A stretch of DNA of 64,000 nt from Octopus vulgaris (taxonomy: Eukaryota): the NCBI GenBank assembly GCA_951406725.2, contig OX597831.1, positions 16,988,001 to 17,052,000 on the forward strand, in the 5' to 3' direction. Within the stretch, counting starts at the first letter, position 1. The number at the start of each line of letters is the position of its first letter. Of the stretch, positions 34,196-37,483 are shown in pieces. Below the pieces are notes generated by a model. That model saw nothing but the letters and a program-made list of their open reading frames with translations. It was not told where the DNA came from and did no database searches. A program made the position numbers and the translations under genes.

Positions 34196-37100
34196 ATGAA
34201 ATATTGTTTATGTATTCTTCTCTTTGTTCGTAAGTAACGTGAAATGTCATTCATAAATTATTTTATGCACAATATATGATTCCGTTCTCTTCTTTCTCTC
34301 AATATAAGTGTGTAATTATATATAATTATAAATATATATGTGTTTGTATGTGTTATTGTGTGTGGGAGTATGTCTGTGCATGTATATGTGTGTGTGTGTA
34401 TGTGTGTATTTGTGTGGTTGGGCGAGTGTGTATATTTGTATATCACAAATACTATCGTCATCTCCGCCTAAGCGAAGACGGAGTTGTCTTGGCGGGATTT
34501 GCGCTCTCTAAGTGCTTTTGTTCATATTTTAATGAATAATCTGGGAAGAGAAGTTATAAAAGTTGTCATTTATTTCTTCTTTTTCTTTTGTAGATCATAA
34601 ACGTTTCGGTCTCTCTTTGCTAGTTTTTTTTTGTATAATGAAAAAATGCAATTTTCAAACTAATTTTGTGGCACTAAAAAAATTGCAAATTCAACCCAAA
34701 ACGAACTTTAAATAGAATCATCCTTCAAAGTTATAACCCTAGGCGAATGTATGGCTATGTTTTCAAAAAACTTCCTCTGCATTAACATGGTGGAAGATTG
34801 GGAAACACTACGTCGTATCGTGGTTCAGTTCCCTCTATTACATCAAGAGACCGGTGAATAAAATTGGAGATAGTGGAAAATGAAACAAACCTATTTTACA
34901 CATATGTATCTGTGTGCCTTTCCCATAGTACAGATTCAGCGACCAGCTTACATATTGTCTGCTGGTTCATTGGAAGCACCATAATTTAGTGTTTCTGAAA
35001 TATAGACACATCACATGAGTGCCATGTAGGAATGTATTTGTTGTGCTATACCCACAAATCCAATACCAAAGTAACGACGATTCTCCAATGAGTGAAATAA
35101 ATACAACGATAAAAAATATGTCCAGAGAATAAATTATAACATCTTTAATTTACAGATGTTGCAGTATCAGAATTACGTGAATATTGCTACGAATTGGGAA
35201 AGAAATATTGCTATAATGGTATGAGATGGTATCCTATACCAACTCATAAAAACGACACATACTATTGCAAGTATGTTCGATTCTTTATAAAGAAAATTTT
35301 TCACATTTTTAAAAATTGAATTTATAAATGTATATATTTATCCTGATCGAAAAATGCATTGTAAATAAACAACGAGGGATAAAGGACGTCTGCTGTACTG
35401 AGCGTAAAACCAATGGGAGGGAGACAATTAAGGTCCCTAATTCATCATCAGTTATGAACCAAAACACAGCGAAGTATTCACTCTCATCGTTAATGTAGCG
35501 AAACTGAGAAATAACGCTTTGGTCGGTAACTGATGACGAATTAGGGGCGCTCTGTTCGTATCCTCCGTCCGGATGTACACTCAGTGCAAGTATATGTTAC
35601 TATGCGTCGTTTATTTGCAATGCGTTTTTCCATCTATTTAATGACGATGCGCAAAGAAATAACGAGTTTTATTAGAAGTAAGATTATATATATATTCATA
35701 TCTACCTGCTATTTATGTATTTAAGGCAAGGAGCTGAGTGAATCTTTAGCACACTTGGCAAAAAAGCTTATCATTTCGTCCGTCTTCACAATCGTAGAGC
35801 ACATTCTGTCGACTGCGACTTTGTCTTTTATCTTCTCTGGGTCAAAATAATAATTACCACCTGAACACTGATGTGGATGTAATCAACTCTCAATCAACAT
35901 ATTCCAAACTATTTAATGATCCATTCAATCTTAGATCCACTTCTAGCGATAATTTGTTTACAGAGTTTTAGTCCAGACTGTTGAAACCAAAAGAAGCCAG
36001 GCAAGGATTTTGTTTACGACAACAAATTTTCATCTCACCTGTATTCGAATACAGCAATTAGCGGGTAGGAACATTTAACCCGATTAAAAATTACAGACCT
36101 GCAAATTCTTCTGTAAACATATCGATGTAATATAAATAATAGCTTAATGTATTGGCTCAAGGTCAGGAATTCCTATGCTACCAAATCTCACCGATTACAT
36201 TGACGACGGGACATGAACTGAAAGAGCAGATATCATGTTGATCTTCACATCCTTGAACCTCTGAAAGTAGAAAGCCAGACGAAATATTACTATGCAAATA
36301 TTTCCAAAGCTCGAATAATCCTACAAGTACATCACCATTAGATAAATATGACAAATATTTCCTCTTACTTGAGGCACGACGCCTAAAGCTTGGGGGGGGG
36401 GCTAATGGATTATATCGACTGAGTGTTCAAATGATAATTTTGTTTCGACTTCGGATGGATGAAATATACAGTTTAACTCAGGACGTAAAACGACGAAAAG
36501 GCTGCTGAGCATTTTGTCCAGCGTGCAAACAATTGTACCAGCACGTGACCTTCAATTTGAAGTTATTGAATTAACACCATGGGATTGAATAAATAATCCG
36601 TAAGTAAACCATGCACAATGATACCAACTATATTAGAATATGTCATATCAAATGTATGACTTCGATATCGTGTTATTAAAAGTAAATAACTGCTATTTTA
36701 CATTAGATACGTTAAACAATATGCATAGAATATTATTCCATGGCATATATTATAATTTTATTGCCAAATTTATTTTTTCTCTTAGTCGAATAAATATGTT
36801 CCATAGCTGTTTTAAAGGAAAGTTCGAGGAGTGCACTAACTTATTCGACAACATATTTTACAAGGAAAAATGTGGTAAGATATTTTCATTACATATTGTA
36901 GTATTACAAGAAATAATGTTTCAAAGGATCAAACACATACAATCGTTATTTTGCACTTAATTTTATTACCTAATATTCCCGTGAACAACTATTTTTATTG
37001 AATGGAACTACTATCGGCAATAAAATGGGTTTTTTTAATGTTATACTTATCAGTTAACAATTCTCGTTCCCTTAAGCATAATTATAATCACTGTCTATAT

Positions 37101-37483
37101 TGCTAGTATGTATGAATATTGTATGTGATTGTAGGTATTTATAATGTTATGAGCAATAAAATATAAATTTGTTAAATTGAATCAATGGTTAAATAGTAAC
37201 TTTTGTTAATTTGCAAATCCATAGTAGTTGAGAATGTACCCAATTGAGGACAGGGAACTTAAAATAATAAATACTTACATTTCTTTCTTTTTACATGACG
37301 GTTTTATTAACAGTCGTTGGAAAGCCCATAAATATAAACCAAAAAATAAAACAAAGTAAATATGCACCGTATTTTCTGTTTATTCTAGGTGATGTAATGG
37401 CTAAACAGAATGCTCCTCCTTCCTTCCGCCTTCAGTCAACATGGCTCCTATCGTTGTTTCTAATAATATCGGTATTGCTGTGA
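34196..37483 (+). CDS. Paralog C (intact): 110-aa small Cys-rich protein with signal peptide and GPI-like tail; coding exons 34196-34229, 35156-35270, 36786-36874, 37389-37483
   Basis: All introns are GT..AG with compatible phases (1,2,1); 34+115+89+95=333 nt with no internal stop. Translation: MKYCLCILLFVHVAVSELREYCYELGKKYCYNGMRWYPIPTHKNDTYYCNRINMFHSCFKGKFEECTNLFDNIFYKEKCGDVMAKQNAPPSFRLQSTWLLSLFLIISVLL*. AATAAA at 37535-37540. An in-frame upstream ATG at 34178 would add MTRVTT. Exon phases are conserved in the other copies. Confidence 0.88.
35349..35630. mobile_element. MITE-like imperfect fold-back element in intron 3 of C
   Basis: aaaaatgcattgtaaataaac ... gtttatttgcaatgcgttttt and inner ccctaattcatcatcagtta ... 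taactgatgacgaattaggg; partly deleted homolog at ~50748-50920. Confidence 0.65.

What the first reader, a model, noticed from the sequence alone, without database searches (positions are those of the whole stretch)
35156..37483. Paralog C resembles vertebrate neuritin/CPG15 in Cys spacing and motif
Seen: C contains MRWYP...YCNRINMFHSCFKGKFEEC...KCG plus a GPI-like tail. From recalled knowledge, neuritin (NRN1) is a small 6-Cys GPI-anchored neurotrophic protein with MANYP...VCTYWEDFHSCTVTALTDC...LCG. It has the same C-x8-C-x7-C spacing, an identical FHSC and a terminal CG, but the other loops differ in length. Inference: a distant neuritin-like (or DUF19-like helical) fold expanded in this invertebrate, which would matter for neural wiring if the host is a cephalopod. 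Convergence on a short motif is possible, and FHSC is not conserved in A or D.
Basis: inference. Interest (0 to 1): 0.75.

Follow-up and report, generated by a model that had tools for sequence, protein, structure and literature searches.

The report
Fast-evolving octopus six-cysteine surface proteins
This gene belongs to a small, unstudied octopus gene cluster encoding tiny six-cysteine proteins that are predicted to be helical and lipid-anchored at the cell surface and that change unusually fast, so they likely recognise a variable partner; the resemblance to the vertebrate nerve-growth factor neuritin is partly chance and at best a distant, unproven kinship.

Summary
Gene C is real. Three uncharacterized O. 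bimaculoides genes (LOC128249851-853) have the same design and support the splicing. The family is predicted all-helical (low confidence) and evolves fast: against paralog D, exons 2+3 differ more than non-coding DNA (0.34 vs 0.24, p=0.005) while both frames stay open.

The neuritin claim is only partly supported. However, the H and S of FHSC, and the terminal CG, occur in only 1 of 7 family members. Pfam gives no NRN1 hit for full-length homologues; its best hit for the trimmed domain is RGM_N (E=0.043, weak). In favour: neuritin is the best named family in one language-model search (0.84, a lead only), and the YP motif and the Phe before Cys4 are family-conserved.

Verdict: a lineage-expanded, diversifying surface-protein family. 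Common ancestry with neuritin is about 35% likely; a neuritin-like neural role about 10%. No expression evidence was obtained.

The parts
34178..34229 (+).
   Evidence: matches the N-terminus of O. bimaculoides P0007 (79% over 19 aa); more conserved than non-coding DNA against D (5 of 52 differ)
35156..35270 (+). Gene C coding exon 2: end of signal peptide, Cys1, Cys2, MxxYP loop, Cys3; ends at a phase-2 donor in the codon after Cys3
   Evidence: junction supported by RefSeq homologues
36786..36874 (+). Gene C coding exon 3 (89 nt, same length in A, C and D): Cys4 (FHSC), Cys5, Cys6; phase-1 donor
   Evidence: predicted helical alone
37389..37483 (+). Gene C coding exon 4: spacer, hydrophobic GPI-type tail, stop TGA
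48972..52797 (+). Paralog D, intact 120-aa model (exons 48972-49023, 50591-50690, 52118-52206, 52676-52797); Cys5 replaced by Tyr
5030..5627 (+). Paralog A, last two exons only (5030-5118, 5560-5627); its tail lacks the hydrophobic run (5 of last 16)
17176..28660 (+). Paralog B, broken: exon 2 frame-shifted with a GC donor, exon 3 without its AG acceptor and 1 nt short, LINE-like insertions in the introns; end coordinate approximate
59528..61251 (-). Remnant E: upstream block and decayed signal exon on the minus strand, followed by LINE-like sequence

Best explanation
Gene C is one member of a tandem octopus gene family whose product is predicted to be a small, GPI-anchored, all-helical, disulfide-tied surface protein, and it likely works as a recognition ligand whose exposed faces change quickly to track a variable partner. 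Shown: four-exon structure, 6 Cys, signal exon, hydrophobic tail, tandem copies with births and deaths, homologues in O. bimaculoides, and faster change in the mature exons than in neighbouring non-coding DNA. Predicted: four helices, signal and tail cleavage, GPI attachment, three disulfides (Cys5-Cys6 pairing is inferred only from D losing Cys5 and the broken B losing Cys6). Inferred: having no cytoplasmic part, it would act in trans or through a co-receptor, as neuritin and RGMs do. A fixed core (five Cys, YP, D-x-Y-C-N-R, aromatic positions) holds the fold while surface residues turn over. The partner (microbe, gamete or another cell) is not identified. The cysteine lattice may descend from the same ancient helical domain as neuritin or RGM-N, but this is not established.
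For: Gene models. Homologues LOC128249851/852/853 on a contig of the same length, all uncharacterized; C is 51-55% identical to P0005/P0007/P0008. Mature domains are only 34-57% identical across the 10 pairs of 5 intact proteins, with 12 invariant positions. C vs D: exons 2+3 differ at 64 of 189 aligned columns against 546 of 2237 non-coding (Fisher p=0.005), and 0 of 205 overlapping non-coding windows reach the exon rate. Non-synonymous sites alone, about 53 of 148, also exceed non-coding (p=0.003). AlphaFold2 on a 9-row alignment led by the P0007 domain gives helices 4-20, 28-44, 46-57 and 62-66 (pLDDT 64, pTM 0.38). The nearest Atlas clusters are two unnamed mollusc clusters (0.93 and 0.92).
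Against: Synonymous sites in the mature domain are just as diverged (about 11 of 29; dN/dS about 0.9), so relaxed constraint is not excluded, and positive selection appears only against the non-coding baseline. The five exon differences shown in three related DNA runs (4 non-synonymous, 1 synonymous) are too few to discriminate, and only 40 of 75 difference rows were displayed. GPI anchoring rests on hydropathy only, and the proline after the likeliest attachment residue is atypical (own knowledge). A and P0009 lack the tail. The structure model is of a homologue and of low confidence. No partner or tissue is known.
Confidence: 0.55

Rival explanations
1. The family is a true remote homologue of neuritin (common descent of the helical six-cysteine domain), whatever it does now.
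For: Same layout (signal peptide, 6 Cys, GPI-type tail) and same x8/x7 spacing. YP in the Cys2-Cys3 loop in 5 of 5 intact members, with Met three residues before in 4 of 5, like neuritin MANYP. Phe three residues before Cys4 in 6 of 7 and an aromatic residue eight after Cys5 in 6 of 7, both also in neuritin (by eye). Neuritin PF15056 is the best named Atlas family for P0007, and 10 of its 10 best named hits share that family or clan. C's second intron is phase 2 in the codon right after Cys3; I recall the same for NRN1, unverified.
Against: No NRN1 row in any Pfam scan of four full-length homologues or the trimmed domain (filters drop most matches above E 0.1). Atlas score 0.84 and 147 shared features are below the tool's bars (0.9; 170), and a third of shuffled proteins reach a first hit of 0.8 or ten of ten. 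No usable named feature hit for P0005 17-80, and no neuritin among the 10 structure rows shown. By hand, Cys3-Cys5 gives 6 identities in 18 columns, three of them Cys; two of the other three (H, S) are private to C.
Confidence: 0.35
2. It is a functional neuritin equivalent: an activity-regulated neurotrophic or wiring factor of the octopus nervous system.
For: The layout is like neuritin and RGM, both GPI-anchored neural proteins (PMC12715718, PMC10084454; passages).
Against: Neuritin is 96% conserved between mouse and human (PMC11578584, passage), and its mature part differs at only two positions among several mammals (PMC10123642, Fig. S1 legend). This family is about 50% identical within one genus and shows gene birth and death.
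Confidence: 0.1
3. The domain is closer to the RGM N-terminal domain or to DUF1397-type invertebrate helical cysteine domains than to neuritin.
For: RGM_N recurs weakly: E=0.25 (P0007, P0008), 1.6 (P0009) and 0.043 (trimmed domain, 27 residues on 27 profile positions over Cys3-Cys5). DUF1397 gives E=0.024 for P0009 over Cys1-Cys5.
Against: All are far below the curated cut-offs and rank among clearly unrelated families. P0005 hits neither. No RGM chain appears in PDB sequence or Foldseek searches. There is no RGM C-terminal domain.
Confidence: 0.15
4. C and D are recently relaxed or dying copies, and the fast change is decay.
For: dN/dS about 0.9 in the mature domain; B and E are dead, A has lost its tail and D has lost Cys5.
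Against: Open frames, intact splice sites and 3 of 3 in-frame indels (joint neutral chance about 7e-6). The signal exon is conserved (p=0.013). Orthologous DNA in three runs shows no stop or indel in exons 2-3 among the rows displayed. RefSeq models exist in O. bimaculoides.
Confidence: 0.12

Closest known systems
O. bimaculoides LOC128249851, LOC128249852, LOC128249853 (XP_052830350-355; uncharacterized)
   Same: Same family: signal peptide, spacing 7-16-8-7-12, YP, Y-C-N-R, and a hydrophobic tail in two of the three.
   Different: Only 41-52% identical to C in the mature domain; no FHSC; the five-protein tree resolves no one-to-one orthology.
Neuritin/CPG15 (NRN1, Pfam PF15056)
   Same: Small, signal peptide, GPI, six Cys, x8 and x7 spacing, MxxYP loop, Phe before Cys4; best named Atlas family for one homologue.
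   Different: Three of five spacings differ (the last loop is 12 vs 27); no Pfam hit; highly conserved in vertebrates, whereas this family is a fast-changing tandem array; FHSC and CG are not family characters here.
RGM N-terminal domain (Pfam PF06535)
   Same: Weak match without length difference over Cys3-Cys5; RGMs are GPI-anchored (PMC10084454, passage).
   Different: Not significant; RGMs carry a second, self-cleaving domain that is absent here.
DUF1397 (PF07165) and DUF19 (PF01579)
   Same: Small extracellular cysteine-rich invertebrate domains (description recalled); DUF1397 E=0.024 for one homologue.
   Different: DUF19 never appeared in a scan; DUF1397 appeared in 1 of 4 full-length homologues and below its cut-off.

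Membership tests
Neuritin (PF15056) | Match to the NRN1 profile | tested here: not met
   No row at E<=10 for P0005, P0007, P0008, P0009 or the trimmed domain; the spliced C itself was not scanned, only its exons and an X read-through, which have little power
Neuritin (PF15056) | Signal peptide plus C-terminal GPI signal on a small protein | tested here: met
   Hydropathy and tail composition only; no GPI predictor or experiment
Neuritin (PF15056) | Six cysteines spaced 9-24-8-7-27 | tested here: inconclusive
   C has 7-18-8-7-12: two of five intervals match
Neuritin (PF15056) | FHSC-type motif as a family character | tested here: not met
   H and S in 1 of 7, F in 6 of 7
Neuritin (PF15056) | Same fold and disulfide pairing | not testable with these tools
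   No AlphaFold DB library; no neuritin row in PDB searches or Atlas structure rows; the model output gives no disulfides; VIA-align was busy throughout
Neuritin (PF15056) | Shared intron positions | not testable with these tools
   C: phase 1 / phase 2 after Cys3 / phase 1; NRN1 exon boundaries not found in print; the match is recalled only
Neuritin (PF15056) | Strong conservation and neuronal, activity-regulated expression | tested here: not met
   Conservation not met (vs PMC11578584); expression could not be tested
RGM | RGM_N profile match above cut-off plus RGM_C domain | tested here: not met
   Best 14.5 bits against a cut-off of 24.2; the protein is too short for RGM_C
DUF19 | Match to PF01579 | tested here: not met
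   No row

The most novel reading that the evidence does not exclude
These genes are molluscan relatives of neuritin by common descent, so the neuritin domain predates vertebrates and may share a superfamily with RGM-N. Octopuses have turned it into a tandem, rapidly diversifying set of GPI-anchored recognition ligands, possibly cell-identity tags.
Probability: 0.35. Interest if true: 0.7.

Novelty: new variant of a known kind. Interest (0 to 1): 0.42.

Why it matters
The family is annotated only as uncharacterized, and the searches for neuritin with octopus, DUF19 or mollusc found no paper describing it. A compact surface protein that keeps its cysteine core while its exons outpace non-coding DNA is a good candidate for recognition of microbes, gametes or cells in cephalopods. 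If kinship with neuritin held, it would give that vertebrate factor an invertebrate history and a natural set of variants for mapping its binding face. As it stands, the neuritin link is a lead and not a result.

Tried and rejected
No whole genome was held.

Single-exon searches found nothing in the word index, Pfam, PDB sequences, or with an X read-through of intron 2. One search shows that such fragments cannot even detect paralog D at database scale (E 130-9300), so these blanks are not evidence.

Of the 5 hits, three (P0003, P0004, P0006) were dropped as repeat-driven chance matches: long repetitive proteins, one of them MAR-domain.

RNA: no RNA holder was listed. Five guessed-RNA contig runs (X4-X7, X16) showed no splice joint among the joints displayed; this is no evidence either way.

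Foldseek against the PDB gave 0 of 25 rows at E<=0.001. PDB profile searches gave only weak TPR-like, CD72, C3a and CLR rows, rejected as generic helical matches. VIA-align never ran. An internal repeat between exons 2 and 3 was not supported (probability 0.3%). The five-protein tree was unresolved.

A direct scored alignment of C with neuritin was not run; that comparison is by eye.

Papers seen: passages only of PMC12715718, PMC12877949, PMC10123642 (plus its supplement, where the alignment is a picture and only the legend was readable), PMC3724992, PMC13070893, PMC6031618, PMC11578584, PMC12411623 and PMC10084454. PMC2828060 and PMC20143 were not held.

Full report
Observation. The three exons 35156-35270, 36786-36874 and 37389-37483 have AG acceptors and GT donors and splice into one open frame. 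A fourth exon upstream, 34178-34229, supplies the start codon and signal peptide. The product is 116 aa with mature cysteines at 28, 36, 55, 64, 72 and 85. Both ends are hydrophobic, and no charged residues follow the tail, which is the pattern of a GPI signal; this is a prediction from composition only.

Surroundings. The window holds five copies. D (48972-52797) is intact, 120 aa, and has Tyr in place of Cys5. A shows only its last two exons and has lost the hydrophobic tail. B has a frame-shifted exon 2, a GC donor and a lost acceptor. E is a minus-strand remnant. This is a birth-and-death array with LINE-like insertions.

Relatives. Searches with single exons failed, and one search shows they lacked power. 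A profile of exon 2 from C and D against 1.84 billion representatives returned 5 proteins. Three were dropped as long repetitive chance hits. Two were full-length homologues, O. bimaculoides LOC128249852 and LOC128249853. A second search added LOC128249851, 3 hits among 1713 candidates. All are uncharacterized. They contain the same junction peptides and so support the gene model. Outside Octopus, the only sign of relatives is two unnamed mollusc clusters in the ESM Atlas (0.93 and 0.92), a lead without alignment.

Evolution. In global alignments of three collinear C/D segments, exons 2+3 differ at 64 of 189 columns and non-coding DNA at 546 of 2237 (p=0.005), while the signal exon differs at 5 of 52. 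All three exon indels are multiples of three. A rough neutral model gives 7e-6 for survival of both frames. Non-synonymous divergence exceeds the non-coding rate (p=0.003). However, synonymous sites in the mature domain are equally diverged (about 11 of 29, dN/dS about 0.9), so positive selection is suggested, not proven. Three related DNA runs differ from C at five displayed exon 2-3 sites, four of them changing the residue and one keeping Cys5. That is too few to test, and 35 of 75 rows were hidden. Mature domains of the five intact proteins are 34-57% identical, with 12 invariant positions.

Structure. AlphaFold2 on the P0007 domain with a 9-row alignment predicts four helices at low confidence (pLDDT 64, pTM 0.38); C's exon 3 alone is one helix. 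Foldseek found no PDB match at E<=0.001. The Atlas's own model of P0005 matched only generic helical bundles at TM 0.52-0.61 by query, none of them neuritin among the 10 rows shown. Disulfides were not reported.

The neuritin question. PMC12411623 prints mouse neuritin 28-115, and PMC10123642 gives numbered peptides. In a fast-changing protein these are probably chance. The x8/x7 lattice is not diagnostic either. RGM_N matches the same stretch, 27 residues on 27 positions, at E=0.043, while NRN1 and DUF19 appear in no scan.

What remains for kinship. Family-conserved features do match neuritin by eye: YP in 5 of 5 with a preceding Met in 4 of 5, Phe before Cys4 in 6 of 7, and an aromatic residue after Cys5 in 6 of 7. 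Neuritin was the best named family in the Atlas feature search for P0007 (0.84). That score is below the tool's own bars, may reflect the shared signal-and-tail layout, and was not reproduced with the trimmed P0005 domain. C's second intron falls at phase 2 directly after Cys3. I recall the same position in NRN1, but searches and passages did not confirm it, so it is a lead. I put common descent at about 35%.

Mechanism. The most likely working is a lipid-anchored helical ligand without a cytoplasmic part, acting in trans or through a co-receptor. Its disulfide core is fixed and its surface turns over quickly, as expected for binding a variable partner. The gene structure and rates are shown; fold, anchor and disulfides are predicted; partner and tissue are inferred and unknown. 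A conserved neurotrophic role is unlikely (about 10%), since neuritin is 96% conserved between mouse and human (PMC11578584, passage). Earlier unchecked notes on this genome describe an octopus and several other fast-evolving surface families; they are context, not support.

Verdict. A real, undescribed, fast-evolving octopus surface-protein family that works at most like neuritin in layout and fails the profile test for membership. Searches for neuritin with octopus, DUF19 or mollusc found no paper on it. The library lacks most subscription papers, and the neuritin alignment in the PMC10123642 supplement was a picture that could not be read. Interest 0.42.

Noticed in passing
window 31427-32005, 46647-47220, 61251-60707 (minus): A ~570-bp non-coding block about 70% alike precedes C, D and E; it contains a TATA-like site and a GT donor-like site and may be the promoter and an untranslated first exon.
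   Followed up: no
window 5030-5627: Paralog A is the most divergent copy and ends without a hydrophobic tail, so it may be secreted or dead; no upstream exons were found in the window.
   Followed up: partly
window 52118-52206 and 24434-24522: D lacks Cys5 and broken B lacks Cys6, hinting at a Cys5-Cys6 bond; D would have a free cysteine that could form dimers.
   Followed up: partly
window 22840-20879 (minus), 15526-14468 (minus), 57288-57926: Long open frames with a reverse-transcriptase-type motif, i.e. LINE-like insertions; the longest (654 codons) lies inside paralog B.
   Followed up: no
window about 12340-12770: A near-perfect inverted duplication with arms of roughly 200 bp, seen by eye; possibly an assembly artefact.
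   Followed up: no
records 2 and 18 on window 34166-34268: Contigs of runs X1 and X2 match the signal exon with 13 differences over about 100 bases: another paralog's signal exon in those organisms.
   Followed up: no
P0009 (LOC128249851): Its RefSeq C-terminus is unlike the family tail and not hydrophobic at the end; a secreted form or a mis-predicted last exon.
   Followed up: no
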